From positions 124,001 through 188,000 of the forward strand of contig JALGPX010000005.1 of assembly GCA_023515795.1 (NCBI GenBank): a stretch of DNA of 64,000 nt, given 5' to 3'. Position numbers and translations under genes: made by a program. Shown piece after piece: positions 31,465-59,219 of this stretch (its first letter is position 1; each line of letters starts with the position of its first letter). The notes under the pieces were generated by a model. That model was not told the origin of the DNA and did not search any database. It saw only the letters and a list, made by a program, of their open reading frames with translations. This DNA comes from Amoeboaphelidium occidentale (Eukaryota).

Positions 31465-34400
31465 ATGCCTTCCAAGCGAGACGCTTTGGCTCAAATTCAA
31501 AAGAACAAGGCAGATGGAAAGTCACATCCTGATCATTCTATAGATCATAAGAAGAAAGAGGAACCACAGTTTGTATCTATCGAAGTCCTTAAGAGTCCAG
31601 CACAGAAATCTGTATCAAATGCACAGAGCAGAATCAGCANNNNNNNNNNNNNNNNNNNNNCAAAAGAACAAGGCAGATGGAAAGTCACATCCTGATCATT
31701 CTATAGATCATAAGAAGAAAGAGGAGCCACAGTTTGTATCTATCGAAGTCCTTAAGAGTCCAGCACAGAAATCTGTATCAAATGCACAGAGCAGAATCAG
31801 CAAGCAATTGCCATCGATAAGTAGAGAAGGATCTCATCATGATCATAATCATGCGCCACAGGTATCACAAAATACTACCGCTGATACTGAAACAAGTCCA
31901 TCACATCCATCTAAACGGAAGACTTTAGTTGTGGAAGATAGATCAAGATCGATTCATCATTACAGACAAGTGCAGCTGAACCAAGCAGGACCTGGTAAAG
32001 CACAGACTGCAGTAAATCCGATTCCTGAGCCTCAGAGTTTCATAAGGACTACAGGATCATGTCAAAGGGCCTGGACTTTGTTCTCCATAGTTGTCACATT
32101 CTGGTGAGTCGATGAAATGGATAAAATCTAATTAGATTCTTAGGGCTCCTGATTTTATTCTGCGCAGATGTCTTAATAAGAAGGATAAGCAAAGTCAAGA
32201 TGCATGGAGGGAAAAGATGGCTCTTTGTGCAGTTTCGTTCTTGTTATGTGTCTTCCTTGGCTTCTTTACCTTCTTCTTTCAAACTACTGCTTGTCCGCCT
32301 CCTCCGAAAGATCTTTACTCTTTGTCCCAAGTCGAGAAGTCGGATATAATCACGCCAGGAAAAGCCAAGATCTTTGGGCAAATTTATGATATCAAGACAT
32401 GGATTACTGCAAATCATCCAAGAGTCCCAGGTCTAGACTGGGATGCTGCTTTTAAGGCTATTGGGACCAAAGATTTATCAGGGCTCTTTAAAAGGGGAAC
32501 TCCTAGCTGTGAAGCGCTTGGTATCAAACTAGATAAGTCACGATGCACAAGCGATCCATATGGTTTTAAAACAGCTGCACATTGTCACGATTGGAATTCG
32601 GTGAAAACAGCATTAGACTCCGCCGGTTTGAAAAGAGGCTTTTCCTTTCTAGAATGGAGTGACGTTATGGGCCAGGAAACAAGAATCGCTTTTAAAGGAG
32701 AAGGAATCGACTTGACTGCGTTCTTGGGCTCACAGAACTCAATATTTACGCCAGAACAAAGGCAAAAAGTATCAGAGTTAATAGGCAAAGATGGGACTCT
32801 TGCTTTTGCTAAAACCGAAAATGATCAATTTCTTGGGCAATGTTTACTAGAGTTGTACGGAATAGGACCAATTGATTATGTAACCATTGAATGTCTTGCA
32901 GCAAACACGCTCCTGAACATTGCATTAATTATTATTTGCAGCGTCGTCCTTATTCGATTTATATTGGCTGTCTTCTTTAGTTGGTTTCTGTCTTGGCAAC
33001 TTGGAAAGATTCAGCAAACCAGATCTATTTTCAACATGGGTGCAGCTGCTCCAACGGAAAAGGTCTCTGCTATTACTCATCCACAGTCCTTTAGCTTATT
33101 CACAACGGTTGATTTTAAACACGTTTACAAAGAATTATACACAATTTGTCTGGTGACGTGCTACTCTGAAGGCGAGGAAGGCTTGCGTACCACTTTAGAT
33201 TCAATCGCATCAACTGACTACAACCCTAATTATAAACTCATATTTGTTGTTGCAGATGGAGTTGTCAAGGGTGCAGGAAACGATAAGCCTACTGGTGATA
33301 TCGTTCTGGATATGATGGAAATCGATCAGTCAATGCATGGAAAACCGATCTCTTACGACAATTCAGAGGATCCTTCTCATCCATCGCTTCTGTGTGGCAA
33401 CGCTGAAGCTAATACATATGAAGCTATCGGACAAGGTCCTAAGAGGTTAAACAAAGCAAGAGTGTATTGTGGTTATTACAGATACAAAGAAAGTAGAGTT
33501 GCGATGATTCTTGTGTACAAAACTGGAATGCAATCAGAAAAGTCTGCAGCAAAACCTGGTAATCGAGGAAAGAGAGATTCTCAGATCGTCTTGATGGACT
33601 TTTTATCTAAAGTCATGTTTGATGAACGTTTAAGCGCATTTCAATTTGATTTATTCACAAAATGGACACATATAATGACTGTACAGAATGGTGGTAGCGT
33701 AAAAGTAACACCTGATGACTTTGAAGTTATTCTTATGGTTGATGCTGACACCAGAGTTATGCCTGATTCTTTAACACGTATGGTTGCAGTGCTGCAGAGA
33801 GATCCTTCCGTTATGGGACTTTGCGGAGAAACAAGGATATTGAACAAGAATGAGTCCTGGGTCACGATGATACAGGTTTTTGAGTACTACGTCAGTCATC
33901 ACTTGGCCAAAGCTTTCGAGAGTATCTTTGGGGGTGTTACTTGTCTTCCTGGCTGCTTTAGTATTTACAGAATCAAAGCACCAAAACCATTGGAGTCTTC
34001 TATGAGAAACATGCAAAATCCCGAAGCAAATTGCCAGTGGGTTCCAATTTTAGCAAATCCGGACATAGTTAGAGATTATTCACAAACTCAAGTTGACACC
34101 TTACACAAAAAGAACTTGCTTCTGCTCGGAGAAGATAGATATTTGACTACATTAATGCTTAGCACGTTTCCAAGAAGAAAGATGATGTTTGTACCGAAGG
34201 CGATCTGCAAGACACAAGTTCCGGCTGAGTTCTCAGTGCTGCTGTCTCAGAGAAGACGTTGGATTAATTCCACTATACACAATTTGATGGAGCTTGTATT
34301 GATCAAAGAGTTGTGTGGAATCTTTTGCTTCTCGATGCAGTTTGTTGTTTTCTTGGAATTGGTTGGTACTGCCACACTTCCTGCAGCTATTGCTTTTACT

Positions 34401-35290
34401 CTAGTCCTTATAGTTTCTGCCATTATTGGTCCCGTTGTGCCATGGGTTCCATTGGGATTGCTTTTTGCAATTTTGGGATTACCTGCATTTTTGATTATCT
34501 TTACCACAAGGAAAGCGGCTTATCTATTCTACATGGGATGCTACTTGCTCGCGCTGCCAATTTGGAATTTTGTTCTTCCTGTCTATTCATTTTGGCATTT
34601 GTAAGTTTCTAGTTTTGCGAAACTAATATCTTTAGCGATGACTTTTCTTGGGGTCAAACTCGGCAAGTTCAGGGAGAGAAGAAAGATACAGGTCNNNNNN
34701 NNNNNNNNNNNNNNNATTTGGAATTTTGTTCTTCCTGTCTATTCATTTTGGCATTTGTAAGTTTCTAGTTTTGTGAAACTAATATCTTTAGCGATGACTT
34801 TTCTTGGGGTCAAACTCGGCAAGTTCAGGGAGAGAAGAAAGATACAGGTCATGGTGGTGAAGAACATGGAGATCTAGAAGAAGATTTACCGCTGAAACGT
34901 TGGTCCGAATGGGAAAAGATAAGAAGGAAAGCACTGAAATTAGCACACGTTAACGATCCTGTTGGCATCGTGCTACATCCGCATGTCCATACACCTCAAG
35001 AAGTTAAGCGTAAAAAAGGATTCTTCAAGACTGTGTTCGGCATTAAATCATCAAACTCGATCAAAGGTCCTCAAAGTCCTTCGTCTCCTTTACCTAAATC
35101 ATTGGATACAAACTTGGCTTCGAATCCGGCTATGACTAATGGATCGCTCAATGCTGAACTTCCAGCAGCGCCATCATCAGCTAGACTTCAATCGCACCCC
35201 AACACTGCTAGAGCCAAGTTTGCTTTCACGAACTCTTTTCAGGCAATATCTCCTTATAATGACGATGATGAAAAGGATGTTAGCAACTAA
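31465..35290 (+). CDS. Chitin synthase, division 2 (class IV-like, no myosin head), multi-exon
   Basis: VTCYSEG, KPGNRGKRDSQ, VDADT, CGET, LPGCF, LGEDRYL, SQRRRW, DDFSWG; cytochrome-b5-like luminal region. Duplicates at N-gaps 31640-31660 and 34695-34715. Confidence 0.95.
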
Positions 35291-40300: not shown

Positions 40301-42552
40301 TTATTCGCAATCCACTGCTGGTAAAGAGAGATACCGATACTTTTCTCAGTTATATCAAATTCAATGGAACGTTTCAGGAGGGTCAGTCTGTTAATTTGAA
40401 TGCTTTGCAACAACAGGCACAAATGTACGCTTCTAATATGGCGATGTTTATTGACGAAAAGAGGAGAAAGCTCATGTTGCACGACAAGAAGAATATTTGG
40501 CAAATTTCTTTAAATGACTCGAACGCTGTTCCAGAACTTTACTATGAATCTTCCTTCTTCACGCCTTTAGTAGCCGCTGCTAACAACTCTGTCTATTTTG
40601 ATATGTTGGATAACTACTGCCCGGGTTTTATCAGATCTGCGGTTGTGTCTACCACTCAAATGGTCACCACTGTTGAGCCAACAATTGTGACAAATACTGC
40701 AATATCTACTGAGGCGAAATCGACGACATCTTCTGCAGTCAATTCCTTCTCAACTACTTTTGCTGTTACTACTTCTGCCTTCATAGTGGCGAATACATCA
40801 AGCACCACTCCCGCATTGGCGACTACAACTACCAAAACAACTGAGATGGTTATGCAAAACAGAACAGCTGTTGACTTTACCACCACGAAACAGTCATTTA
40901 CAACCTTGACTGTCAATCCTTTCACAACTTCAATCAACTCAACTAACTTCAATGGAACTGTTATCATGTCACCTCTGGAAGTTGTATTCTCAGAGCAAGG
41001 TGCATCTGATTTTGCAGTTACAGTCAACGTTATTACAGGTACTGCAATCGCTGGAACCGTTGGTGGTAGTATTGTTTCATCAGTTGTTGTTAGCTCGACT
41101 TTGGCTGGCGCGGGCGCTGGAGCTGGTGGTGTTGCTGGGAATGCGGCGTTAGCTGGCCAAGCAGCTGCTGGTCCTTACATTTTGATTGTATTGAATCAAC
41201 TGCAATTCATGGTCTTGTTGAATATGATAAGTGGTGATGTACCGCCATTCTATCAATCGTTTGCAGGNAACGTTATTACAGGTACTGCAATCGCTGGAAC
41301 CGTTGGTGGTAGTATTGTTTCATCAGTTGTTGTTAGCTCGACTTTGGCTGGAGCTGGTGGTGTTGCTGGGAATGCGGCGTTAGCTGGCCAAGCAGCTGCT
41401 GGTCCTTACATTTTGATTGTTTTGAATCAACTGCAATTCATGGTCTTGTTGAATATGATAAGTGGTGATGTACCGCCATTCTATCAATCGTTTGCAGGAG
41501 GTATATCCTGGGTCATGCTTGGTTTCAGTGGCGCCAATTTTGGAACATCAACATCCCCTTCTTTAAACAAGAGAGATGGCGTGATTTCTGCTGTTAATTC
41601 AACACAGAATGGTATGGAAAGATATGCTCAATCTATAGGTTTGGACGTATCTCAAGTGTTTTCGTCGTTCATGATTATTTTCCTATTACTTGCCGGTGCT
41701 GCGCTTTTACTAGTCTTTGTGTTTTCCACCTTCCGCAGGTATCAAGAGAAAGTAAAGGCCGCAAAAGATGGAAATACTCCAGCGACATTTGGCGCAAAAG
41801 TCACTAATGTTGGCTTAACTTTAAGCAGAAAAGGTTTTGGACATTTGTTCATTTTTGCGTACATCTCTATGTGTACGCTCTCTGTCGCGCAACTATTCAT
41901 TGCCGACACTATTGGAAACTTTTTCGGAGCGCTCGTTTTGGCAGTCATTTGCACTGGATTTTTAGCAATGTTGTCTATTGCTATTATTAAGCCAGACTAT
42001 GAGTGGTCCAAGAAGTTCTTGAGCGCTACAGAGCCTGTTTATAATACTTTCTTCAAAGAGATTGTTTGTGGAGATTATAAGGACGAACATGTTTTTGCTG
42101 GTGTTGTTAAAACGTTTTTCAAGTATTTAGTCGGAATTATTACTGGTGCAGCTCAGAATGTTCCTGTCGCTCAAACATGCTTGATCATGTCGATTTATAT
42201 TTTGCAGGCGGTTTACTTTTTGAAAACTAGGCCGCATAAGTTCAATGCTGTGTTTTGGGTAGAAATTGTTGCCACTCTTGTGAGTGTTGTAAGTTTGGCC
42301 CTGAAAGTTTATACAACAGCTTACCCAGATGTACAAGTTGCAGCAGTTGGAGCAGCTCTGTTGGTTGTTAATGGTGCTTTGATTATCCTTGTCTTGGTTG
42401 GTATCATGGTAGAACAAACCGCCAAATTTCTTGATAGAAGAGCAAAAGCCAGAAAAACCGGTTCTGAAACAGAAAAGAAGGATGAAGATCTTGCTAAGAG
42501 CGCTGAGCTCAATAGTCCTGATGTCGGTGGACTCGACAAGAAGGACGAATAG
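37324..42552 (+). CDS. Large membrane protein: signal peptide, three tandem extracellular repeats, Ser/Thr stalk, TRP-like (FLC-type) multi-pass domain
   Basis: Single-exon ORF with three homologous ~340-390 aa repeats; LNQLQF..L..ISG.VPPFYQSF..W motif followed by about 7 TM helices. About 240 nt are duplicated at N 41268, so the true length is roughly 1660 aa. Confidence 0.75.
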   Translation: MKLYELKAWPGVLQVVMLQVAMMIMLIDAAKFKQTYAFVSTNIMDDNSTGVPIKTQSIITKLTYETGYPTHPADAKVLTNFGLESYAKYHAMAFDQETGILYFSTVEPDDSYRGGPSQFTVNIKMVDVFSNEEAPASLLLEYSFFSWNASTPELYHMITDIKLDKNLGLLLFSYSDRGPDVSTRIIAFSLVNNNFTIVWDSPEGPFFDTVFVLDTANTSVYTYFGEEFVVFDYSNPTGSIPADYMLMESMFKPPPLYWDLDIATFGAVYAVKESNFVFLLTALDYFGGEFPIGPIGLSMADQKKLIFDFSLNKTVFYDEYNIWNYDYVTGNLFLKFDFGPTSPTPLPFLKGAPSIPKIARYCLGDTVDVFVPECASCVTNNNKIVNFVSVNTVDYYYYGDNSNIPEAPQSYLGTIGYPVFKNILPNDGISSYDKSQPIVFDEENGYLYFGNLEPAGVNETNIFTCNLKRVDVYNNSFPAAELVYTFDTFVWETRFLGCSVNDLHLDKERNLLVIAWTPPELNQNRELGVLNLTSAIFDTIYQTDDFLGDIIGLDTAAGTLYVTRFSDLVFFSYLELSNATVPSSIVTVENFQVYTDFAVGREEDEPKIFYVDSYVLPGTSLPRDALYSKPLNSSEEKRRLYDLDFLDYLSQRSPSQYKVSLDASNRKLFLYGLYHVIQFDLNDISKEPELLWDSTLNGNPWIQEVVASQIVRFCRGYTESFGPVTETTTLASTTMNPSTTLPTMTPKPTPAPTICPTCSDQDIQNVAFISYTDAQFYGESLPQQVFSYIAKVGFPGLYAPFVEFLPNLGTESFGNQQMAYDDKTGLLYFTTLEQVFVDGFPKNFSCNVKVVDTKNPAFPPSELLYTISNFPVESLEKCFINQLDLDSERSLLVISWGIYPNGYSNHIGAYNLSSKVYDVLWSPPTYDLFGRMVDLNKKTGEVYVFLSSYLTKFSYLDFSDATVPKNAKVISFEIPFPPNYVIDWAGDYPVMYFIRNPLLVKRDTDTFLSYIKFNGTFQEGQSVNLNALQQQAQMYASNMAMFIDEKRRKLMLHDKKNIWQISLNDSNAVPELYYESSFFTPLVAAANNSVYFDMLDNYCPGFIRSAVVSTTQMVTTVEPTIVTNTAISTEAKSTTSSAVNSFSTTFAVTTSAFIVANTSSTTPALATTTTKTTEMVMQNRTAVDFTTTKQSFTTLTVNPFTTSINSTNFNGTVIMSPLEVVFSEQGASDFAVTVNVITGTAIAGTVGGSIVSSVVVSSTLAGAGAGAGGVAGNAALAGQAAAGPYILIVLNQLQFMVLLNMISGDVPPFYQSFAXNVITGTAIAGTVGGSIVSSVVVSSTLAGAGGVAGNAALAGQAAAGPYILIVLNQLQFMVLLNMISGDVPPFYQSFAGGISWVMLGFSGANFGTSTSPSLNKRDGVISAVNSTQNGMERYAQSIGLDVSQVFSSFMIIFLLLAGAALLLVFVFSTFRRYQEKVKAAKDGNTPATFGAKVTNVGLTLSRKGFGHLFIFAYISMCTLSVAQLFIADTIGNFFGALVLAVICTGFLAMLSIAIIKPDYEWSKKFLSATEPVYNTFFKEIVCGDYKDEHVFAGVVKTFFKYLVGIITGAAQNVPVAQTCLIMSIYILQAVYFLKTRPHKFNAVFWVEIVATLVSVVSLALKVYTTAYPDVQVAAVGAALLVVNGALIILVLVGIMVEQTAKFLDRRAKARKTGSETEKKDEDLAKSAELNSPDVGGLDKKDE

Positions 42553-45609: not shown

Positions 45610-47577
45610 TCAGCCCTGTGAGCCTTTTCGCTTTGCTCTTCCTGACTGACTTCTTTCGCGAAAATTATAAGCTTGGTCGGTGACATTAGATCCGTCATCA
45701 GTTGCCAGACTGGCATCAGAGTCTTTGAATTGCCTGACGAGCTTATTCGGTTGGACTGGAACTTTGTAGCCACCGTTGGTAACTTCTGCAAGCTCATCCG
45801 TGCCATCATTCACGTCCAGAGTTACTAAAAGACTGCTGACACTGCCATTAGTCAACCCGCTCGTCTTCCTATGTGATTTAAAGTTTGCTAAGCGAGCCTC
45901 CGCCATCATTGCCATTCTATCCCTTTCAATACGTTCATTCTCGCCCATCTTCAGTAGAATAGGTTCAACAGATTCCAGCCAGTTCTGCTGAGGTCCAACG
46001 ACAGACCCAGGTCTCATAATTCTGCACCAACTAATGCAGTTTCTGGCGGTCCAACCAAACTTTTTGATCATCCAGCAGCAAATCAAAGAACCGGTTCTAC
46101 CAAGACCAGCTTTACAATGTATGGCGATCGGTCCAAACTCAGCAGGATTAAAGTTCGCTACAGGTGGCCATGGAGGAAGATGTTTGTCGCAGATTTCAAG
46201 GAACGTTTGCACAATAGTATCCAGTTTCGGAACCGAGCCATCAGGGAAATATAACTCATAATGCTCCAAGTTCTTCTCTAGAACCTTATTCCTGTCATAC
46301 ATCTTATTGTTCAATCTGACTACAGCCTTTATGTTCAATTCCTTCAAAAATACCAAAAGGTCTTCAATTTTGTACATTGGCCTGAATCTTGTTGACCTGA
46401 TTGTCGGAAGCCTATTCCCTCTTTTGACCTCTTCATGAAATGCAAGTAATCCTGGTGGTGGATTATCATGAGGAGTTGCCATGGCAAGGAAATAATTTGG
46501 AATAACCCAATTGAAATCACCATTCTCAACCTTTTCATAGTAATCATATTGTTCAGTATCAAACGTATCAATATCAACAAGTTTCAATTCAAACACTCCT
46601 TTATACAATGCTTTGAGACAGTCCAAAATGTCAATCCAATAAGTTGCCATTCCGTAGCCAGCATCTCTGAACGGTGCGATTGGAAGGGACATCATCTTTT
46701 TCATAAATACGCTCAAAGCCTTCTCAGGTGTTTCTTTCTTCGATAAGAGTATATAAGACGCGAGTAAGAATATTGCGTTTGAGCATTTATCCATGTTGAA
46801 TGCTGCAATCATCAATAATTGCTTGTCTTGAAGCGAAGGATCCTTAAAAATTCAGCACCGATGCTTTCAAATAATTTACCGATAGCTTCTTTTCAATAAT
46901 ACTCTTAAATTTGATGACTTGAGATATGTTTACTGGTCCAAAGTCCATGTGAAATCTACTGTAATTCAGTGCAACATCTACCGAGAACACGTGAATGTTC
47001 GTAGAATTATTAAGTACGATAGGGTGGGAAACATAACTATCGAAATAGAGTCGACCTACTATTTAAATCATTAGTAAAGATCTACCTGGTATGACTTGGA
47101 CTGCGTTGGCGAGTATTTGGTCTGACTGAGTTGAGATCGAATCGTTTGATGCTGCTCTTGATCCAGCTTTCTTCTTACTTTTCTTTTCAGCGATAATCCT
47201 TGCTGATTTTTCGATATTCGAGAGATCATTAGTAAAGTTCTTTGTCTCGGAGCTGTTCATACTGATGCCTTCTGTGCCCTGTGAACTTTCTTGCTTTCGG
47301 TTTGATCCATGATCATGTTGCATTATCACATCATCACCGGGTGTAATCGGCGAAGGAAGCCCTGTGAAATACTGGCGGATTTGAGATGCATAGCTACTGA
47401 AGCTTGTGGGCTGCACAGGCGTTGTTGGTGTGATCATGTAGCCTTAAACGTCAGGAACATCTTTGATGAAGCACGATTACCTGTATTGTTCGGTTCAGGT
47501 GTGACGACCAGCGCCTTCTTAGATCTATTAAGTACATTGTGATCAGTAGTATCAGAATCCATTGAACGGTCTTGCAT
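45610..47577 (-). CDS. CDC14: Cdc14 dual-specificity phosphatase, multi-exon
   Basis: DFGP, FRDAG, YEKVENGDFNW, VRLNNKMY, FPDGSVP, HCKAGLGRTG, RPGSVVGPQQ. The 5' exon and start are assigned tentatively. Confidence 0.9.
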
Positions 47578-47645
47578 TGCAAGGAATGAATTTTTGTAAA
47601 TCACTTATTAATAGCCACGTGTATCCATGACAACCGACTGCTCAC

Positions 47646-47826
47646 TGTTGGAATTAATGCGAATTCCAGTTTAGTCGATTCAATACAAACACTTCCGTTT
47701 TGGTCTGAGTTGTGGCTGAGTAATTTGACGTAGATCTGTAGATCAAATAAAGTTAAGTGCGAAGTGAACGAAGTGCGTTTATTTCGGTCTTGCTAGGTTT
47801 ACAGTTAAGTAAGTTAAGCGTTTCTT
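47646..47826 (+). mobile_element. Ty1/copia LTR, truncated by a contig join
   Basis: Starts TGTTGGAAT; near-identical to 57239-57412 apart from a 7-nt indel. The 88-nt left flank recurs at 47828-47915 without the LTR. Confidence 0.88.
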
Positions 47827-48257
47827 NTCCATTGAACGGTCTTGCATTGCAAGGAATGAATTTTTGTAAATCACTTATTAATAGCCACGTGTATCCATGA
47901 CAACCGACTGCTCACTGAGTTTAACGCAGTTTCTCTAAAACAACTTCAGCCGAAAAGATACAAAGCAAAAGATGAGTTGAAACATTTATGTCCAATAAGC
48001 CATTCATTCACATGTGACACGATCTGCAAGACGATCAAAAGACTTCGCCGCCAGTTTTTTTAACCCCTTGAATGCCATGATTCTAAAAGTATTAAAAAAT
48101 CACTTTCGTACAAATTTACCTTGGTTACTTTTGTGCGGACTTGTCAAGCCGCTTCTGTGATCTTGTTAAGATTCTGTAGGAGGAGGCACGAGTACTCTGA
48201 GTTGTTTCAGTCTGTGCATGGATAGTCTCATCACCAGNGGATTGCCCTTCTGATTCT

Positions 48258-49675: not shown

Positions 49676-50731
49676 TCAATGACTTTGTGGTTTCGGTTCT
49701 TCAGCGGATTGAAAGAGCTCAGACTTCGTTCTAACCTCAAGGAAATTATCTCTGAAGTCATTGCCTACTTGGGATTTCAATATTGCAAGCAAATCGACGA
49801 AATCATAAGCTTCCGAACCGGTAGGCTTGGGGTGAAGGTTTTTGAAACCATCGATTGCACCCAACATAATGTTGTCCATTTGAGTCTTATGTCCCAATTC
49901 GTAGAGCTTCATCAAGTTTGAAAAATGCTGTGCTCGATTGTCATTGACTGTTGCTTTGATAACGCCACTACACAGAACCTCAACAAACATTTTGCCCACC
50001 TCTCTGGAAAATTCACGGAGATCAATTACCAGAGGTTCTTCCCTTTCCATGCGAATATCCAACAACTCTGAAAGAACGATGCTATATTTTCTCAGAACTT
50101 CCGGATAAACAGAAATGTTCCCATCACGAAATTGTACCGTAGCCATTTCTTCACTAATGTCGATAGACCTGAAACACAAATCCGCAAACTCCGAGCGAGC
50201 CTTTTCCGTATCAATGTTGGTGCACTGACCATCTGGTCGTGGAACAAATAAAGCGAAAGAAACGGTCACATTCTGTCCATATGGTCTTGAAGACAAAGCT
50301 TCATACGGCATATGAAAACCTCTTTCACTTGGGTCTCTCCAACCGTACCAACCATTTTTCTTCGCGAAAACTAACGTGGTATTAAATAATAGCTGTTCAT
50401 CCTTGCGTACAATGGCAGAAAATGTTGCCGGTAAGTCGAAACTGTCATCTGGACAATCTTCAACACAGCTGGCTGATACATTGAGCCCTTTGAGCCCATT
50501 TAATTCTTTGTTCTGAACCACTGAAAACTTCCACTTCCCATATCCTTTGATTAAAGCATTTTGAGGCTGCTTAAAGTCGATACGATGCACTTCATCTGAG
50601 GATCCGAAATCAACCAGCGTGAAACTCAAGTCTGCTTTCAACATCGGTACCAGACACCGATCCAAAACCATGGAACTACCAGCAGAGCAAAGAGCAAGAA
50701 CCAGGAATGCGTATAATATGAACGAATTCAT
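49676..50731 (-). CDS. Predicted secreted protein with MATH-like and BTB/POZ-like domains
   Basis: Signal peptide MNSFILYAFLVLALCSAGS; beta-rich middle (WKFSV...GWYGW); BTB-like TVQFRDGNISVYPEVL.KYS.VL..LL...IDLREFS.EV.KMFVEVL.SG. Confidence 0.65.
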   Translation of the reverse strand: MNSFILYAFLVLALCSAGSSMVLDRCLVPMLKADLSFTLVDFGSSDEVHRIDFKQPQNALIKGYGKWKFSVVQNKELNGLKGLNVSASCVEDCPDDSFDLPATFSAIVRKDEQLLFNTTLVFAKKNGWYGWRDPSERGFHMPYEALSSRPYGQNVTVSFALFVPRPDGQCTNIDTEKARSEFADLCFRSIDISEEMATVQFRDGNISVYPEVLRKYSIVLSELLDIRMEREEPLVIDLREFSREVGKMFVEVLCSGVIKATVNDNRAQHFSNLMKLYELGHKTQMDNIMLGAIDGFKNLHPKPTGSEAYDFVDLLAILKSQVGNDFRDNFLEVRTKSELFQSAEEPKPQSH

Positions 50732-51129
50732 TTGAAACAAAGAATCTTAATCTGCCCAGATCCAGGGGTGAATGTAATTCTGCCCAATCGTTCATCTCAG
50801 GGGCTGCGTATCTTCCTTCAGGAAATCTAGTGCCAGGCAAGGCAAGGTAAATACTGATCTTGCATGCAGCGATAGACTTCTTCAACGTACTTCAAAGGTC
50901 TTTTTTAGCTGAATCGAGTTTGATTTCTGCTCTGTCGGGCACTTTAACTAAAGTGAAGCAACTACCTAAACAAAAGATTCAATATGGCAAACCCCTGTTT
51001 CACGAATCATTCTTGAATATATCGAGGTTGGCTTATACCTGTCACAAGCAGAACTAATTGTGAGACACTAGTTGGGTTCTATTCTGCAATACAAACGAAA
51101 TCACAACAAGGAAACCTTAGCTGTAGTCA

Positions 51130-51202
51130 GCTCTGTTGGCGCAGCTGGCAGCGCGTAGGTCTCATAATCCTGAGGTCGTGAGTTCGAACCTCACACAGAG
51201 CA
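51130..51202 (+). tRNA. tRNA-Met(CAT), elongator type
   Basis: Acceptor GCTCTGT/ACAGAGC, D-arm TGGCGCAGCTGGCAGCGC, anticodon loop CTCATAA, T-arm GTGAG-TTCGAAC-CTCAC. Confidence 0.95.
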
Positions 51203-51203
51203 C

Positions 51204-51208
51204 TTTTT
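51204..51208 (+). terminator. RNA polymerase III terminator (T5)
   Basis: TTTTT immediately after the tRNA discriminator base. Confidence 0.7.
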
Positions 51209-51426
51209 GCCGGAATTCACTGTATTTTTATCGCGTTATTAAGGAACTGATGGCTCTTGATAATATTGTTCTAAAATGCGAACTCCCATGCCTTTTTCCA
51301 CTAGTAACTCCTTTTAAAACCATTGTTCACAATGATCTTCTTGTTGTTTCGGCTGAGCGAACATAATCCGCATGCTGTAAAAGATTGTTTTATTGACATA
51401 GCGTAATCACTAACAGATTCTGCCTT

Positions 51427-51744
51427 TGATAATTAGTCCATAGAGATTATCATCGTGTTGACCTTCTGAGATGTTTAACTCAGGCGAAGGCGTCCCGAGA
51501 ATAATGATGACCTCTCGTTTCAAGGTTATACCATTAATGCCTTCATAATTGATGTTTGCTGTCAGCCGCATCCACAAAACCAAGAAGAGTTTAAAATCTC
51601 TTGTATATCGCGTATCAATAGGATCGTAATCATTCTGCAATTCTCCCAAACACGTGCAACGCAAACAGAACGCACAATTTCTATTTTAGACTAGATAGTA
51701 ACTACACAAAATAACATTAAAATATCGTGATGATACAGCGTACC
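51427..51744 (-). ncRNA. Candidate omegaRNA scaffold of the Fanzor-like locus
   Basis: Directly 3' of the RuvC ORF; five closely spaced stem-loops in 51427-51603. Boundaries unknown. Confidence 0.35.
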
Positions 51745-53440
51745 TCAATGCGACATGTCAAGCCGCCTTTTTCCCTTCTTTACCAATGAAACAGATACGT
51801 TATCTTCAGCGGAATCATCTAAAGTCTTATCACCTATTTCATCGCTAATGGAAGCAGAATAATCTGGTGAAGGCTTGTCCGGAGGTTTGTATCGTAAGTG
51901 CTCAGGCCTTCCTTTCCCTGTTACTTCATCTCTTAGCACTCTTGCCATGTTCTCTCCAGCCATAACGTCTCGATGATAGAAAACATGACAATGTCTGCAA
52001 TATTTCACACGCATCTTGAGTTGTTCTGTCCTGTTGAAACATCTAGGACACATTTGACTGGTAAGATACTCCTCAACGCAGACAACAGTGTAGCCAAGAG
52101 ATCTTAATTTCATAACCAGATGTTTTTCAAACAATGTGTGAGTGTTGTCTCCCATTTCGAATTTGCTTGCTCCTATGCCAATGACAATGCGTTTGTTTTT
52201 GAAAGCCTCACGCTTCAGATTGTAGTTGATTTTCATTTCTACCATTCGAAGTATAGCATGAACAGCACGATCAAATTCGCCACGCAGAGCTTTCTTGATA
52301 TCCCATCGATTCTTTTTCATGGATAAACTATTGTAGAAAGCATACAATTTTGAGTAACAGTTAAACCATCTAGTCGCGAAATTGGAAGCTGTTTCAGATT
52401 CAGTTCTCTCCATTAGCCGCTCTGTTTCATACACCCACTCATTCTCATATTTTTGTTTGTAAAACCATCTGTTGTATTTTTTTAATGGTCCTCGAAGGGC
52501 GTTCTTTCTGATAGCAAGATTGCGGATGGTATTCGAGCTTTCTTGTACTGCACAGACACCAGCAGAATACTTGTATCCTAAATCAACTCCAACAAAGTAG
52601 CAATCCTTTGCTTCATCCTCGGTCATTTTAGGAACTTTGTCATAAACAACGTCGGAGGGCTTGACACCAGCATTATCAAACAACCCTTCGTCAAAGTCGA
52701 TCTCCTGAGTTGGTTGGAGAACGTTCCTCTTCTTTTTCTCTGCTGTGTCAAGAACATGCACTCTCAACTCTACACCATCAGTTTGCAATGTATTCTGTAA
52801 AATATATCGTTTGTTTGAAGTATCATTCTGAAGTCGAAGATGCCGATTTCGATTATCACCAAAGTTTTTGCCAAACAATTCCATAAAGAACCACCCCTTG
52901 TTCTGAATTACAAAGTCGTTCGAAATTCTCTTAAACACTGGAACAACTTGTTTAAGAACATCCAATAAGCCAGACTCGTTAACGGTGATCGCAAGGTCAG
53001 GAACGCGGGACAACGAAAACATACTCCATCGCTTGTTGCTTGGAAGTAGTTGATTCAGCTTGTAAAAATACTCAACCTTGCTTTTGCATAGCTTTTGTAG
53101 CTTGTTGATATCATCTTTTAGATTTGAGTCATATTCAAAGACAACTTCCTCTAATAGTTTCACTCTGCCAACAACTTGCCCAGCGAACTCGGTGTCCAAC
53201 TGTTTAGCGATGAAATCAGTTGCCTGACACATACTGAATTTTGATAACGTATACAATTTCAGAGACTTCACCTCACGACCGCTGAACAATTTCTTATTAA
53301 TACAACTTTTAAAGAGGTTTAACCCTACAGACTCAGTTTCATCCCTCCCAGTACCATTAAGAAACGACATGCATGGCTGCCAGAATTTTCTTCCTCCTTG
53401 ACCTTTTGTATCACCAAGAATCATATCATCTAATTTTAAC
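51745..53440 (-). CDS. Fanzor1/TnpB-like RuvC nuclease domain (C-terminal half of the fused gene)
   Basis: TDGV motif; RuvC-I VGVDLG (D at 52582-52584); IVIGIG; RuvC-II VEEYLTSQMC (E at 52069-52071); zinc finger CPRC..CRHC; RuvC-III HRDVMAGENM (D at 51967-51969); terminal RP..L. Confidence 0.9.
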
Positions 53441-53441
53441 N

Positions 53442-56400
53442 AACAATTTCTTATTAATACAACTTTTAAAGAGGTTTAACCCTACCGACTCAGTTTCATC
53501 CCTCCCAGTACCATTAAGAAACGACATGCATGGCTGCCAGAATTTTCTTCCTCCTTGACCTTTTGTATCACCAAGAATCATATCATCTAATTTTAACGTG
53601 TTTTCATTTAATTTTATAATACTCTCTACAAACACTTCTGCGGCTTACTGGGCTTTGCGTTTCAGTATATTCAGCTGCGCCACTAAAATACTGAAACAAT
53701 GAATTATTTCTTTTTCATACTGTGCATATTGTCTTTGTCGATTTCTTGTTGAAAGCGCTCCAATACTCCACGTCTTTGTTACAAACTTTGCTTTCAAACT
53801 TGACATTTCTCTACTTTCGTCCGTGACGTTACGCGAACCTGTAGCACCAGCCTCAGCAGCATCAGGCTTATTTCTAAAATTTCTTGATGATGGCTGGTGT
53901 TTCGCAGACGTCTTTTTTCTCTTCTTACTTGAATTGTGAACGGTTGTTGAAGCAGAAGATCCACTTTCTTCATTGCTTTTACTTCCATCTAAATTTTCCT
54001 GTAATGCTTCAATTTGAGATTCCAAAATTTCCTCCGGCTGCTTTGGTCTTTTCTTCAGAGGTAAAGGTGGAACCTCAGACACACACAGTGATTTTCTATC
54101 CACAGTTTTATATTTATATCGCGTCAAGCTTTCATTATCATCATTGAACTTCTCACCTAGAACACGAAACGGATTTTTGTGAGTCCAGCGTTTAAGGTCC
54201 AAATTATCGCTGTTCCCAATATAATTTTCCTGCTTATCCTTCCATGCAATATTGTAATTGTCCCATTTTTTAATACTCTCCTTATTAAACAAAGATAACT
54301 GTAATAGTTTTTCTGTTCTAGCGTCGTGATGTAGAACATGTTCCTCTTTGCACTCAAAGATCATAANAGCACCAGCCTCAGCAGCATCAGGCTTATTTCT
54401 AAAATTTCTTGATGATGGCTGGTGTTTCGCAGACTTCTTTTTTCTCTTCTTACTTGAATTGTGGACGGTTGTTGAAGCAGTAAATCCACTGTCTTCATTG
54501 CTTTCACTGCCATCTAAATTTTCCTGTAATGCTTCAATTTGAGATTCCAAAATTTCCTCCGGCTGCTTTGGTCTTTTCTTCAGAGGTAAAGGTGGAACCT
54601 CAGACACACACACAGTGATTTTCTATCCACAGTTTTATATTTATATCGCGTCAAGCTTTCATTATCATCATTGAACTTCTCACCTAGAACACGAAACGGA
54701 TTTTTGTGAGTCCAGCGTTTAAGGTCCAAATTATCGCTGTTCCCAATATAATTTTCCTGCTTATCCTTCCATGCAATAATGTAATTGTCCCATTTTTTAA
54801 TACTCTCCTTATTAACAAAGATAACTGTAATAGTTTTTCTGTTCTAGCGTCGTGATGTAGAACATGTTCCTCTTTGCACTCAAAGATCATAATGGCTTTG
54901 TCAAAATTCGAGTCCGAACCAACAGTTTCCAAGAACGATTGTACTATCTTGTTGCATGACTCAAGATCAGCTTTTCTGTATTGTCTTATCCATTTGTACA
55001 CGCTAGCAATAGCCCATCCTCGAACATTTGAGCAGTAATCATTTCCACTTAATACCGCCAATGCACGCAATGATGCAAGATTTAGCTTAAGCTTATTTCT
55101 GGCTTCAGCGACGTCAATGTATCGGATCATTAAATTATTTCCTTGAAGAGAAGGAACAGCCCAAATGCCGTCATTTAGATGAAACACCATATCAGAGTCA
55201 GTGCTGATAACATTTACGCGACCTTTTCTTGTACCAATGAACACATCCGCTTCACCGGCAGCTTGCTCAATCTTGTACCCAAGCCTCTTCAGTAGAGCCA
55301 TTATTTCTTCTTTGTCTTGCTTGGTCAGAACAAAAGCTTTCTTGATCAACTTCTTCATTAAGATTTTCTTTGCTTTAGACACTCTCTTCAAAGACACTTT
55401 ATCTTCTGCTCCCTCTTGATCTCCATTATCTTTGCATAGAGAGTCAACAAAATACTGAAGATCCTGAATAGATTGGCGCTTGCTCTCTAGCCTTTTGATG
55501 TGAGTGACTTGCTTCTCTTCTGTTGATCCACCATCAAAGACAATCGTTANTCCGCTTTACCGGCAGCTTGCTCAATCTGGTACCCAAGCCTCTTCAGTAG
55601 AGCCATTATTTCTTCTTTGTCTTGCTTGGTCAGAACAAAAGCTTTCATTATCAACTTCTTCATTAGGATTTTCTTTGATTTAGACACTCTCTTCAAAGAC
55701 ACTTTATCTTCTGCTCCCTCTTGATCTCCATTATCTTTGCATAGAGAGTCAACAAAATACTGAAGAGCCTGAACAGATTGGCGTTTGCTCTCTAGCCTTT
55801 TGATGTGAGTGACTTGCTTCTCTTCTGTTGATCCACCATCAAACACAATCGTTAAATGCTTGCTTTTAGGAATAATGGTTGTAATGCGCTTGACCATATG
55901 ATCCCAATCTTTTAATCTTGAGTACTTGGAGCACAATAAAGGATAGAAGACCGCCTCGAAGTCCAAGTAGTGATGCTCATTTCGAAAAGGATAATTTTCA
56001 TAACTGATATGCTTTGAGAAGAGCTTTTTGGCTTTGAAGAACTTNGATTTTCTTTGCTTTAGACACTCTCTTCAAAGACACTTTATCTTCTGCTCCCTCT
56101 TGATCTCCATTATCTTTGCATAGAGAGTCAACAAAATACTGAAGATCCTGAATAGATTGGCGCTTGCTCTCTAGCCTTTTGATGTGAGTGACTTGCTTCT
56201 CTTCTGTTGATCCACCATCAAAGACAATCGTTAAATGCTTGATTTTGGTAATAATGGTTGTAATGCGCTTGATCATATGATCCCAATCTTTTGATCTTGA
56301 GTACTTGGAGCACATCAAAGGATAGAAAACCGCCTCGAAGTCCAAGTAGTGATGCTCATTTCGAAAAGGATAATTTTCATAACTGATCTGCTTTGAGAAG

Positions 56401-56443
56401 AGCTTTTGGCTTTGAAGAACTTATGCGCACCTTCCACTCCCAT
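53442..56443 (-). pseudogene. FEN1/XPG-family PIN nuclease domain plus linker (N-terminal half of the fused gene), present as overlapping, partly disabled segments
   Basis: MGVEG start (ATG 56443), YLDFE, IVFDG..EEK..T..KR, QAAGEAD, ISTDSD, LAVLSGNDY..NVRG. Split by single-N joins at 53441, 54367, 55550 and 56045; frameshifts and one in-frame TAA (53645-53647). Confidence 0.85.
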
Positions 56444-56454
56444 TAATGATTATC

Positions 56455-57076
56455 AAAAAATAAAGAGAACGCAATCAGAAAAAAGGTCAAAAGCAAACTT
56501 TTCAATTTTATTAAGGTTTGTATGGGAGAATCGTTTAAGTATATGGCCCGGCTCTTGTTTAGCAAATTATTTAAAGTTGAAGTTTCCTAGTTAACCTTAA
56601 TGACAATCATGCTTCTGGTTCTGATACCTCTTCTATCAGATTGATCCCTCCGGTGCCTGGAGATTGACTTCTGTCTTAACACGTGCTTGCAGCACACACA
56701 CAGATCGACACCTCGAGCCACAGCCTGTATCTTCAGATAGCAAATTATTGATGAATGNNNNNNNNNNNNNNNNNNNAAAATAAAGATGACGCAATCAAAA
56801 AAGAGGTCATAAGCAAACTTTTCAATTTTATTAAGGTTTGTATGGGAGAATCGTTTAAGTATATGGCCCAGCTCTTGTTTAGCAAATTATTTAAAGTTGA
56901 AGTTTCCTAGTTAACCTTAATGACAATCTTGCTTCTGGTTCTGATACCTCTTCTATCAGATTGATCCCTCCTGTGCCTGGAGATTGACTTCTGTCTTTAT
57001 ACGTGCTTGCAGCACACACACAGATCGACACCTCGAGCCACAGCCTGTATCTTCAGATAGCAAATTATTGATGAAT
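56455..57076. repeat. ~300-nt near-identical duplication around N-gap 56758-56776 (probable haplotype duplication)
   Basis: 56455-56757 recurs at 56777-57076 with several substitutions. Confidence 0.8.
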
Positions 57077-57238
57077 GATCGTATTTTAGAACAGCTTTAC
57101 CTCTGATGGCTTTGCAGGTAACAGATAAGAAAGTGCAGCATCCTTAATGATCCCACAAAGGTCGTTAATAAGATGCAAGAACTTCAAGCAGACTTTTTTG
57201 TTCTACCCTTCGATCTTGCTTTCATCCATTACTGTTCC

Positions 57239-57507
57239 TGTTGGAATTAATGCGAATTCCAGTTTAGTCGATTCAATACAAACACTTCCGTTTTGGTCTG
57301 AGTTGTGGCTGAGTAATTTGACGTAGATCTGTAGATCAAATAAAGCGAAGTGAACGAAGTGCGTTTATTTCGGTCTTGCTAGGTTTACAGTTAAGTAAGT
57401 TAAGCGTTTCTTAGTGAAAAGTCGACAGTTATGAGCCCTGCTATCGACAACGTTAAGCACGTCCTCCAAGGTTCTAGCAATTATGCGCACTGGGCGCAAG
57501 AAATTAA
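57239..57507 (+). mobile_element. 5' end of a Ty1/copia retrotransposon: LTR, primer-binding site and gag start
   Basis: 189-bp LTR TG...CA (57239-57427); PBS GTTATGAGCCCTGC (57428-57441); gag MSPAIDNVKHVLQGSSNYAHW with the copia L.G..NY..W motif; truncated at N 57508. Confidence 0.9.
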
Positions 57508-57944
57508 NTCCAAGAACTTCAAGCAGACTTTGTTGTTCTACCCTTCGATCTTGCTTTCATTCATTACTGTTCCGATTATGAGACACATTAAAATTTTGTT
57601 GAGATCAGTATTAGCCATCTGCATTAATTTCAAATTGTACTAAANATTGCGTGAAAATAATATCTGATAGACTAAACAAAGGTTGCACAGTGAATTTTCG
57701 GAAAGCTTGCGAGAAATATCTATTTTCAAGTGAATACATCTCCGACAGTGACGAGGATGTAATTGCTGCAAGAAAGGCATGCAGAAAGCGGGCAGAAATA
57801 CAAGAAAGTCTGCCAAACTGATTCCGTGTTCTGAGACTTCGAAACATACTTCTTATGGGTTTTGTTCAATAGTTTCTAGGGTCTTGAAATTAATACCTGA
57901 ATAAATCGTACAACAGCCCTTGACACAGCAAAACTTCTATTTAC

Positions 57945-59219
57945 TTAGCCAGAATGAATTTTCAGTTCGTTTCCGTCTTGAGTTAAATAATGAGCGTTAC
58001 TAAGTGCAGCTAATGGATCATTTTTATAGTGAACAAAGTGACCTTGAAGTTGAGCTGCACTAACTTCATAACCTTTCAATTTCTTTACAAACTTATCCGC
58101 TAGATCGGTTTCACCTTCATAAAATCGCAAAAACATCTCATTAATCTGATAATCAGAAGCGTTCCCAATTAGTACTTTCAGATCGACCCTGCCAGGCCTC
58201 AGTAATGCTTTATCCAGTCTCTCAATATGATTCGTAGTCATAAAAATTATTCTTCCTTCCGATGAAACAACTCCATCTAACGCGTTAAGAAACCCACTGA
58301 ATGTCATGTTGTTTCCTTCCGTTTTCCCTGTACTTTCTCGCTGATTTGTAAATGCTGCGTCGATATCTTCAAGAATAACTATCGACCTTTGAGGAATTAC
58401 AGACATGAGCAAATTTAATCGATCATCACTTAAATACTTCTCTGATAAGTTCAACACACAAATGTTGTACTCTAATTCACCTGCAAGCGCCTGAATAAAA
58501 CTGCTCTTGCCACTCCCCGGCGGGCCATACAATAAATACCCGCGACGATAAGGAATCCCTCTGTCAACGTACCATTTTCCATTAGCAAGGAAATCGTTAA
58601 CATCACTCAAAATTCTATCTGATATTCCTTTGTCCAGTATAACGGAAGATAAAGGTCGTCTCCTTCGTGGATAACCAAAAGGCTTCCATTCTTGTCCCCA
58701 AGATGTGTAAATCACAGTTTTGCCCTCCTGTCCAGCAAAAGCTTCTTCTCGAGCTTCGTCCAATATAAGCGATACTATGGAACGATCCCTCGTGACAGCG
58801 GTCATTGTCAATGTTTCCATCGCAGAAGAAGAACCGCTTGATATGTCAACTGTGGGACGTTCCCTCTGTCTTTCCACCTGAAACCAAATACCTTTCCATT
58901 TGAAGTAATGACGCCCAGGAGACGGCACGAAACTAAATTGAGTAGAGAAGCTTCCATTATCGCGTTGGACGAACGATGTTTTTACGCTGATATGCTGAGA
59001 TCGCTGTGCTATTTGCTTGTTGATCCATTGAAGCACCCAAAAGTAGCTCTTATCGTAGCTTGGTATATCAATAGTTGTAAGAAAATGTCTACGCGCCAAA
59101 TAATCCAGTTGTTTACCTCCTTGCTTAAGCACGGCCAATCCGGTACCTACACCGACAAGGCCAAGACCAGCGGTAAAGATCGAATTATTTGCGATCGACT
59201 CCAACACAGATTCGAACAT
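57945..59219 (-). CDS. BCS1: Mitochondrial AAA chaperone Bcs1
   Basis: N.IFTAGLGL.G.G, FVPSPGRH, RGIPYRRGYLLYGPPGSGKSS, LEDID, MTTNH..RLD.ALLRPGRVD. Confidence 0.96.
   Translation of the reverse strand: MFESVLESIANNSIFTAGLGLVGVGTGLAVLKQGGKQLDYLARRHFLTTIDIPSYDKSYFWVLQWINKQIAQRSQHISVKTSFVQRDNGSFSTQFSFVPSPGRHYFKWKGIWFQVERQRERPTVDISSGSSSAMETLTMTAVTRDRSIVSLILDEAREEAFAGQEGKTVIYTSWGQEWKPFGYPRRRRPLSSVILDKGISDRILSDVNDFLANGKWYVDRGIPYRRGYLLYGPPGSGKSSFIQALAGELEYNICVLNLSEKYLSDDRLNLLMSVIPQRSIVILEDIDAAFTNQRESTGKTEGNNMTFSGFLNALDGVVSSEGRIIFMTTNHIERLDKALLRPGRVDLKVLIGNASDYQINEMFLRFYEGETDLADKFVKKLKGYEVSAAQLQGHFVHYKNDPLAALSNAHYLTQDGNELKIHSG

What the first reader, a model, noticed from the sequence alone, without database searches (positions are those of the whole stretch)
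51209..51744. Hairpin cluster downstream of the RuvC ORF: candidate omegaRNA
Seen: this ~540-nt non-coding gap is large for a genome whose intergenic spaces are often under 50 nt. It holds five close stem-loops: TGATAAT/ATTATCA (51427-51452), CCTTC-TGAG/CTCA-GAAGG (51462-51490), CGAGA/TCTCG (51496-51517), GATG..GCT/AGC..CATC (51551-51572) and CAAGA(A)GA/TCTCTTG (51581-51603). Established: TnpB/Fanzor omegaRNAs are encoded at the 3' end of the locus, with the guide taken from flanking DNA. Inference: this may be the scaffold, with the guide just beyond the element end. Short stems also arise by chance.
Basis: partly seen in the sequence, partly recalled or inferred. Interest (0 to 1): 0.7.

Follow-up and report, generated by a model that had tools for sequence, protein, structure and literature searches.

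The report
Flap-nuclease–Fanzor element end; hairpins outside
The flagged hairpins are chance-level folds in host DNA just outside a repeated element whose gene joins a flap-trimming nuclease domain to a Fanzor nuclease; the guide RNA is predicted to lie at the element's own end, overlapping the tail of that gene, not in the flagged cluster.

Summary
The five stems exist but are weak and at chance level. Contigs from four public runs place the element's 3' end at 51689, 56 nt past the stop codon. Five contigs of other copies switch to unrelated flanks at 51688-51690. Two relatives carry the flagged DNA without the element end. The cluster (51427-51603) is therefore single-copy host flank, 86-262 nt beyond the end, and cannot be the scaffold.

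The better omegaRNA candidate ends at 51689 on the minus strand. It may include a strong hairpin inside the gene's disordered tail (51773-51857, z about -3.9). The guide would be about 51688-51674. No RNA data were available.

The element encodes a FEN1/XPG-type nuclease fused to Fanzor. This architecture recurs in 20 of 20 long relatives. The protein is listed in a published Fanzor supplementary table, but I found the fusion discussed nowhere. The assembled copy has a premature stop. The element's left end was not found.

The parts
51130..51203 (+). Host tRNA-Met (CAT), followed by a run of five T
   Evidence: ARAGORN; Rfam RF00005 61.9 bits; sequence
51209..51688 (.). Single-copy host flank; holds the five flagged stems (51427-51603); not part of the element
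   Evidence: One X1 contig at single-copy depth (116.7 against 117.9 next door). X3 record 17 (51180-51681) and X5 record 25 (51518-51681) hold it and then leave the window's sequence. Chance-level folding.
51413..51634 (-). 74-codon open frame between two 40-41-nt GT..AG intron candidates (51675-51635 and 51414-51375); possible exon of a small host gene, unproven
   Evidence: codon score inconclusive; two of the splice patterns were chosen after seeing the sequence; 3-nt indel at 51449 in X2 and X3; no homologue or Atlas hit
51674..51688 (-). Predicted guide (about 15 nt of flank beyond the element end); inferred
   Evidence: Boundary; 14-15-nt guide length taken from SpuFz1 (PMC10432273 section 7)
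51689..51744 (-). Element right end (56 nt after the stop codon; plus-strand end GACTAGATA); 3' part of the predicted omegaRNA scaffold
   Evidence: Loose ends before 51688-51690 in 2 X1 and 3 X2 contigs. An X5 copy has the same terminal 9 nt but lacks about 42 nt (51698-51739).
51713..51751 (-). Hairpin across the stop codon; mostly absent from the shorter X5 variant
   Evidence: z -2.35, 11 of 500 shuffles as good
51773..51857 (-). Strong strand-specific hairpin (14-bp core) inside the last 40 codons of the ORF; candidate 5' part of the scaffold
   Evidence: z -3.89 (1 of 500 shuffles) and -3.97 (0 of 200); plus strand z +0.69; 0 of 368 tiles elsewhere score as low; the encoded tail has pLDDT under 50
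51745..53424 (-). Fanzor C-terminal ORF, 559 aa: RuvC D281, E452, D486 and C4 zinc finger
   Evidence: Pfam PF07282 E 2e-9; Foldseek hits to TnpB and SpuFz1 at E 4e-7 to 2e-6; motifs
53645..53647 (-). In-frame premature stop within the N-terminal part of the Fanzor moiety, in the assembled sequence
   Evidence: the residues before it align to continuous sequence in P0007
53648..54613 (-). Basic/acidic linker and start of the Fanzor moiety, partly duplicated around an N
54684..56443 (-). FEN1/EXO1/XPG-type (PIN-fold) nuclease domain, present as overlapping N-separated duplicate pieces, some frameshifted
   Evidence: phmmer to human FEN1 E 5e-4; family profile to EXO1/RAD2/FEN1 E about 1e-10; FDG, EAD, DSD and GNDY motifs
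56859..57028 (.). Upstream block shared with other copies and with relatives, so still inside the element
   Evidence: X1 record 1, X3 record 10, X5 records 11 and 12
57082..57090 (+). Direct repeat of 51682-51690 (TATTTTAGA); possible 7-9-bp target-site duplication marking the left end, unconfirmed
   Evidence: no X1 contig covers 57029-57087

Best explanation
The flagged hairpins lie in single-copy host DNA beyond the 3' end (51689) of a multi-copy element that encodes a flap-nuclease-Fanzor fusion, and the element's guide RNA is predicted to be read from the minus strand across the tail of the gene and the 56 nt after its stop codon, taking about 15 flank bases (51688-51674) as guide. SHOWN: the position of the end; the host-flank status and chance-level folding of the cluster; the strong hairpin at 51773-51857; the two nuclease domains with their acidic motifs; the premature stop in the assembled copy. 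INFERRED from characterised Fanzor1 systems: the RNA is made, binds the protein and guides a cut at an element-free allele, favouring copying of the element back into it. SPECULATIVE: the fused FEN1/EXO1-type domain trims flaps or resects the cut so that repair copies the element. This copy is probably dead as assembled.
For:: five contigs of other copies leave the window's sequence at 51688-51690 (2 in X1, 3 in X2), each into different DNA. Depth in X1 steps from 117 to 218 there. X3 and X5 contigs hold the flagged DNA up to 51681 and continue without the element end; cluster at chance level; hairpin 51773-51857 at z about -3.9 on the ORF strand only; that stretch encodes a low-confidence tail. 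PMC10432273 section 7: SpuFz1 omegaRNA is 75 nt ending at the right end plus 14-15 nt of flank, and the GtFz1 omegaRNA overlaps 17 C-terminal codons; fusion in P0001 and P0006-P0010, and in 20 of 20 hits of 900 aa or more among the best 150.
Against: No RNA was seen and no covariation test was possible, because 260 differences were not shown. Of three listed changes in the hairpin region, one is unpaired (51829), one keeps a G-U pair (51846) and one breaks a pair (51847); none is compensatory. The last 84 nt before the end fold no better than shuffles (z -0.5). An X5 copy lacks 42 of the 56 post-stop bases. One X2 copy has 10 differences in 51689-51826. The only other locus fetched (L001, 55% identical protein) shows at best z -2.6 near its stop. 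The strong hairpin was picked as the best of a sliding scan and then trimmed, which inflates its z. X1 may be the sample the window came from. The 20 of 20 count is biased because the query was itself a fusion and 2 of the 20 seeded the profiles. The left end and an exact empty site were not found.
Confidence: 0.82

Rival explanations
1. One reading: the five hairpins at 51427-51603 are the omegaRNA scaffold and the element ends further left.
For: The stems exist. The DNA is about 91% conserved in relatives. Some Fanzor families have long conserved 3' non-coding regions (PMC10530073 passage).
Against: No other copy shares the region; it sits at single-copy depth and occurs in relatives without the element end. 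Folding is at chance level. Its conservation equals that of neighbouring DNA (88-93%, table 8).
Confidence: 0.03
2. The omegaRNA is short, as in SpuFz1 and PpFz1, covering only about 51765-51689 plus guide; the strong hairpin at 51773-51857 is an mRNA or processing structure, or chance.
For: Known Fz1 scaffolds can be about 75 nt. The post-stop segment with the stop-spanning hairpin is of that size.
Against: That segment folds at z -0.5 and most of it is missing in the X5 variant, which would leave too little scaffold without upstream sequence.
Confidence: 0.35
3. The flagged gap is the remains of a small spliced host gene (minus strand) that the element interrupted near its start. This is compatible with the best explanation and concerns what the flank is.
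For: 74-codon open frame between two 40-41-nt GT..AG candidates; similar short introns can be read by eye in the Cdc14-like gene. The only indel listed in that frame in relatives is 3 nt.
Against: Codon score +0.6 bits lies between true chunks (7.6 +/- 6.6) and wrong frames (-9.1 +/- 6.1). No homologue among proteins of 40-130 aa and no Atlas hit. No Pfam result was obtained for it.
Confidence: 0.3
4. The element is a non-autonomous passenger moved by a transposase in trans (for example a MuDR-like one leaving 9-bp duplications), and the flap-nuclease domain is cargo that serves Fanzor cutting or repair rather than mobility.
For: A 7-9-bp direct repeat flanks the candidate element. Fungal Fanzor1 elements without their own transposase and with 6-12-bp duplications are described (PMC3627910 section 12). 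Spu-1 also lacks a transposase.
Against: No terminal inverted repeat to the right end was found in 53400-58000 (best 10 of 12 or 12 of 20, inside coding DNA). The direct repeat is AT-rich and could be chance (my estimate: about 0.02 for 9 bp, 0.3 for 7 bp in 1.5 kb).
Confidence: 0.5

Closest known systems
SpuFz1 / Spu-1 and GtFz1 omegaRNA systems (Saito et al. 2023, PMC10432273; section 7 read, passages and supplement searched)
   Same: Fanzor RuvC and zinc finger; short distance from stop codon to element end; scaffold predicted to end at the right end, with overlap of the ORF tail as in GtFz1; no transposase inside. The 93%-identical sister protein KAI3661525.1 is labelled FZ1 in its supplementary file 3.
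   Different: Here the protein is about 1,100-1,300 aa with an N-terminal FEN1/XPG-type domain. No terminal inverted repeat and no constant TA flank were found. The omegaRNA is predicted, not shown.
Fanzor fingerprint of Yoon et al. 2023 (PMC10711439; sections 23, 24, 27 read, supplement searched)
   Same: Alternative catalytic Glu just before the zinc finger. This locus's protein model KAI3662223.1 is listed in Table S2.
   Different: RuvC-I reads DLG, not the near-exclusive DPG. Among such motifs in 126 RuvC-bearing relatives, L occurs 29 times and P 13 times (crude regex count).
Unclassified fungal Fanzor1 elements MCi-2 and MCi-5 (Bao & Jurka 2013, PMC3627910; section 12 and passages read)
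   Same: Conserved 3' end, no recognisable TIRs, AT-rich direct repeats of 6-12 bp, unclear transposase.
   Different: No flap-nuclease domain is mentioned in the parts read. The left end here is not established.
FEN1/EXO1/RAD2(XPG) structure-specific 5' nucleases
   Same: Profile match at E about 1e-10 over about 200 residues, with FDG, EAD, DSD and GNDY motifs.
   Different: Fused to Fanzor inside a repeated element rather than a stand-alone repair gene; activity untested.

Membership tests
Fanzor omegaRNA scaffold (flagged cluster 51427-51603) | Lies inside the element and is shared by its copies | tested here: not met
   copies diverge at 51688-51690; cluster at single-copy depth
Fanzor omegaRNA scaffold (flagged cluster 51427-51603) | Folds better than shuffled controls on the ORF strand | tested here: not met
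   z -1.2; 42 of 300 shuffles as good
Fanzor omegaRNA scaffold (candidate 51857-51689) | Conserved block with a sharp end followed by variable flank | tested here: met
   five other flanks at 51688-51690
Fanzor omegaRNA scaffold (candidate 51857-51689) | Stable stem-loops on the ORF strand | tested here: met
   51773-51857 z -3.9; 51689-51860 z -2.3; the last 84 nt alone give z -0.5
Fanzor omegaRNA scaffold (candidate 51857-51689) | Covariation across diverged copies | tested here: inconclusive
   Three listed changes: one unpaired, one G-U, one pair-breaking; full copy sequences not available
Fanzor omegaRNA scaffold (candidate 51857-51689) | Expressed small RNA bound by the protein | not testable with these tools
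   Needs small-RNA-seq or RIP-seq
Fanzor (Bao & Jurka motif) | D-x(125,275)-[TS][TS]xx-C4 zinc finger-x(5,50)-RD | tested here: met
   Pfam PF07282
Fanzor (Yoon fingerprint) | Alternative Glu just upstream of the zinc finger | tested here: met
   EEYLTSQMC; definition
Fanzor (Yoon fingerprint) | DPG motif in RuvC-I | tested here: not met
   DLG in this protein; relatives mixed
Fanzor1 clade | Phylogenetic placement in Fanzor1 | not tested
   No tree built here; sister protein labelled FZ1 in Saito 2023 supplementary file 3
Spu-1-type cut-and-paste element | Terminal inverted repeats and TA duplication | tested here: not met
   No inverted match to the right end in 53400-58000; flanks at 51689 end in different bases; left end not located
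FEN1/XPG 5' nuclease | Conserved acidic metal-binding motifs | tested here: met
   FDG, EAD, DSD, GNDY align with EXO1/FEN1
FEN1/XPG 5' nuclease | Flap or exonuclease activity | not testable with these tools
   Needs a biochemical assay

The most novel reading that the evidence does not exclude
This is the right end of a widespread, undescribed class of eukaryotic selfish element that spreads without a transposase of its own: one protein joins an RNA-guided Fanzor cutter to a FEN1/EXO1-type flap nuclease, so that the guided break and its trimming drive copying of the element into new or empty sites, with the guide RNA encoded in the protein's own tail.
Probability: 0.17. Interest if true: 0.8.

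Novelty: new variant of a known kind. Interest (0 to 1): 0.42.

Why it matters
For the flagged hairpins themselves: little, beyond correcting where the omegaRNA should be sought. Cloning 51427-51603 as a scaffold would fail, whereas 51860-51689 is a testable candidate. The surrounding element matters more. A Fanzor naturally fused to a flap/exonuclease domain with intact acidic motifs would be an RNA-guided cutter carrying its own end-processing enzyme. That bears on the open question of how Fanzor elements without a transposase move, and on engineered nuclease-exonuclease fusions. The proteins are already in public Fanzor lists, so the novelty is the unremarked architecture, not the family.

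Tried and rejected
No genome is held for this window, so copies were seen only through public-run contigs. No RNA holder listed. Rfam gave only the tRNA; nothing matched the gap or the element end. The metagenome scan gave 1 locus of 178 candidates; its 3' end has no recognisable likeness to this one. Viral contigs gave 0 of 35 and prokaryote genomes 0 of 42. The sequence that follows 51681 in X5 was not found in the window with up to 3 mismatches, so the X3/X5 contigs are 'flank without the element end', not a proven empty site. Laying contigs on 56777-57500 did not show the left end; X1 has no cover at 57029-57087. A third-position bias in 56896-56998 fitted no open frame and was dropped. 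The bacterial promoter/terminator scan was uninformative for a eukaryote. The gap frame gave no homologue; Pfam scans of it returned errors and gave no result. The structure model is mediocre (pLDDT 61, 8 sequences), so the fold hits support TnpB/Fanzor but do not separate them. One search fetched an unrelated paper by a wrong id and one search used the wrong frame; neither was used.

Full report
Setting. The window is a compact eukaryotic genome. The ORF at 51745-53424 (minus, 559 aa) is 100% identical to the end of a 1,369-aa protein named for the aphelid Amoeboaphelidium occidentale (P0006) and 93% identical to a second protein of that species (P0001). It carries Pfam Cas12f1-like_TNB, RuvC residues D281, E452 and D486, and folds like TnpB and SpuFz1 (modest model). 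A tRNA-Met lies at 51130-51203.

The observation. The five arm pairs are present, but each folds at only -2.5 to -7.7 kcal/mol. Four perfect stems of 5 bp or more in 177 nt are reached by 8.6% of 500 shuffles and by 24 of 361 tiles of the window. Folding z is -1.2 on the ORF strand. Gaps of this size are common in the window (7 of 39 are 508 nt or more).

Where the element ends. Contigs of 4 of the 9 listed runs were laid on 50600-53400. In X1, which may be the window's own sample, depth is about 117 over 51173-51718 and 218 from 51689 inward, and two contigs leave the window's sequence before 51689. In X2, a different study, three contigs leave it at 51688, 51689 and 51690, each into different DNA. 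An X5 contig has the same terminal bases but lacks about 42 nt of the post-stop segment; its flank resembles one of the X2 flanks. Conversely, X3 record 17 matches 51180-51681 (43 differences in 498 nt) and runs on for 1,010 nt of other DNA, and X5 record 25 matches 51518-51681 and then diverges. Twenty loose ends and 114 pieces were not shown. The element therefore ends at 51689, and the hairpin cluster is host flank 86-262 nt outside it. The sequence after 51681 in X5 was not found in the window, so these contigs are not a proven empty site.

Where the omegaRNA probably is. In SpuFz1 the scaffold is 75 nt ending at the right end, followed by 14-15 nt of flank; in GtFz1 it overlaps 17 C-terminal codons (PMC10432273 section 7). 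Applied here, the scaffold ends at 51689 and the guide is about 51688-51674. A sliding scan found its lowest z values at 51760-51879 on the minus strand. Trimmed to 51773-51857, this hairpin has z -3.89 and -3.97, +0.69 on the other strand, and none of 368 tiles elsewhere is as low. It encodes a tail with pLDDT under 50. A second hairpin spans the stop codon (51713-51751, z -2.35). Against this: the last 84 nt alone fold at z -0.5; of three listed changes in the hairpin region one is unpaired, one keeps G-U and one breaks a pair; one X2 copy has 10 differences in 51689-51826; and the hairpin was selected after scanning. The 3' boundary is well supported, while the 5' extent of the RNA is open.

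What the flank is. It is single-copy and about as conserved in relatives (91%) as neighbouring DNA (88-93%). It holds a 74-codon frame (51413-51634, minus) between two 40-41-nt GT..AG candidates, and the one indel listed within it is 3 nt. Codon scoring is inconclusive and no homologue was found. I give 0.3 to an interrupted small host gene.

The element's gene. Upstream and in the same orientation lie a linker and a FEN1/EXO1/XPG-type domain starting at 56443. It matches human FEN1 at E 5e-4 and, as a family profile, EXO1/RAD2/FEN1 at E about 1e-10, with FDG, EAD, DSD and GNDY motifs. The same single-chain architecture is in P0001 and P0006-P0010, including a Mortierella protein. A full search with P0008 gave 743 clusters at E up to 0.001. 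Of the best 150, 23 carry both domains, 103 only RuvC and 24 only the flap-nuclease domain; all 20 of 900 aa or more carry both. That count is biased by the fused query, and the single-domain hits are all under 900 aa and may be fragments. The Atlas's nearest cluster is eukaryotic, 1,312 aa, 58 members. In the window the 5' part is broken into N-separated duplicate pieces, some frameshifted, and an in-frame stop at 53645-53647 falls in the Fanzor moiety. The assembled copy is probably inactive, though assembly error is not excluded.

The left end. Relatives stay homologous to at least 57024 and no boundary was seen. There is no inverted repeat of the right end in 53400-58000, but 51682-51690 recurs directly at 57082-57090, a possible 7-9-bp duplication that may be chance. 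No transposase domain was found in the ORFs scanned (9 ORFs around the locus).

Mechanism. Most likely this works like other Fanzor1 systems: a transcript through the right end yields an omegaRNA that guides a cut at element-free alleles (inferred). The fused flap nuclease would process that break or a transposition intermediate (speculative). Whether the element moves by itself or with a transposase in trans is open.

What is known. The locus protein KAI3662223.1, its sister and the Mortierella protein are rows of Table S2 of PMC10711439; the sister is labelled FZ1 in PMC10432273 supplementary file 3. The protein has the alternative Glu but DLG rather than the DPG fingerprint. I found no discussion of the fusion. 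Searches: Fanzor+XPG 0 papers; Fanzor+Amoeboaphelidium 0; Fanzor+flap endonuclease 5 papers, 4 listed, seen as listings only, none evidently about it; TnpB+XPG+transposon+fungal 1 listed, unrelated; broader searches (listings only). Term searches in the main texts of PMC10711439 and PMC10530073 and in the supplements of three papers found no XPG, FEN1 or relevant PIN mention. I could not see figures, notably fig. S1B of PMC10530073 on Fanzor domain content, nor one picture-only supplement of PMC10432273; I did not search the supplements of PMC3627910, and subscription papers are not held. Seen per paper: PMC10432273 passages, section 7, supplement search; PMC10711439 abstract, sections 23, 24, 27, supplement search; PMC10530073 passages, supplement search; PMC3627910 passages, section 12; PMC11423790 passages. 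Two earlier notes of this scan report the same pairing in other fungal genomes; they are unchecked AI notes and were found after I had seen the fusion.

Verdict. The flagged cluster is not an omegaRNA. The locus is the right end of a Fanzor element of an under-described flap-nuclease-fused type, with a relocated, untested omegaRNA candidate. Interest 0.42.

Noticed in passing
window 57239-57430, second copy 47645-47826: High-copy short repeat (X1 depth up to about 2,400 against 112-117), apparently an LTR of a Copia-like retrotransposon. It is followed by a primer-site-like motif and a gag-like start; the Copia label is recalled, not from a call. An allele without it seems to be assembled at 57502-57586.
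   Followed up: partly
window 24254-24475, 29722-29962, 31498-31802, 34560-34850, 41018-41498, 47558-47917, 53285-53597, 53843-54892, 55362-57076: Near-identical tandem duplications separated by N: probably scaffolding artefacts or alternative haplotypes/copies written side by side. They inflate the 1,369-aa gene model P0006.
   Followed up: partly
window 51698-51739: A natural variant of the element in X5 (and probably X2/X3) lacks about 42 of the 56 post-stop bases but keeps the terminal 9 nt; useful for mapping the minimal scaffold.
   Followed up: partly
window 51681 and 57074-57082: The X5 contig that leaves the window at 51681 continues with a 9-mer that also occurs, on the other strand, at the candidate left end near 57081. 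It may be chance or an oppositely oriented insertion at the same site; seen after the fact.
   Followed up: no
window 49676-50790: The 354-aa ORF left of the tRNA has no Pfam hit and its 5' part is multi-copy in X1 (depth 340-410), with relatives in X2, X3 and X5: a small unnamed gene family.
   Followed up: no
PMC10432273 supplementary file 3 and PMC10711439 Table S2: 38 and 112 rows name Amoeboaphelidium: aphelids are rich in Fanzor-like proteins. One more distant A. occidentale protein (KAI3658238.1, 1,219 aa) also appears by eye to start with an XPG-like domain.
   Followed up: no
L001 880-1166: A 55%-identical metagenomic relative also has a long tail after the RuvC domain and about 105 nt after its stop before the contig ends.
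   Followed up: partly
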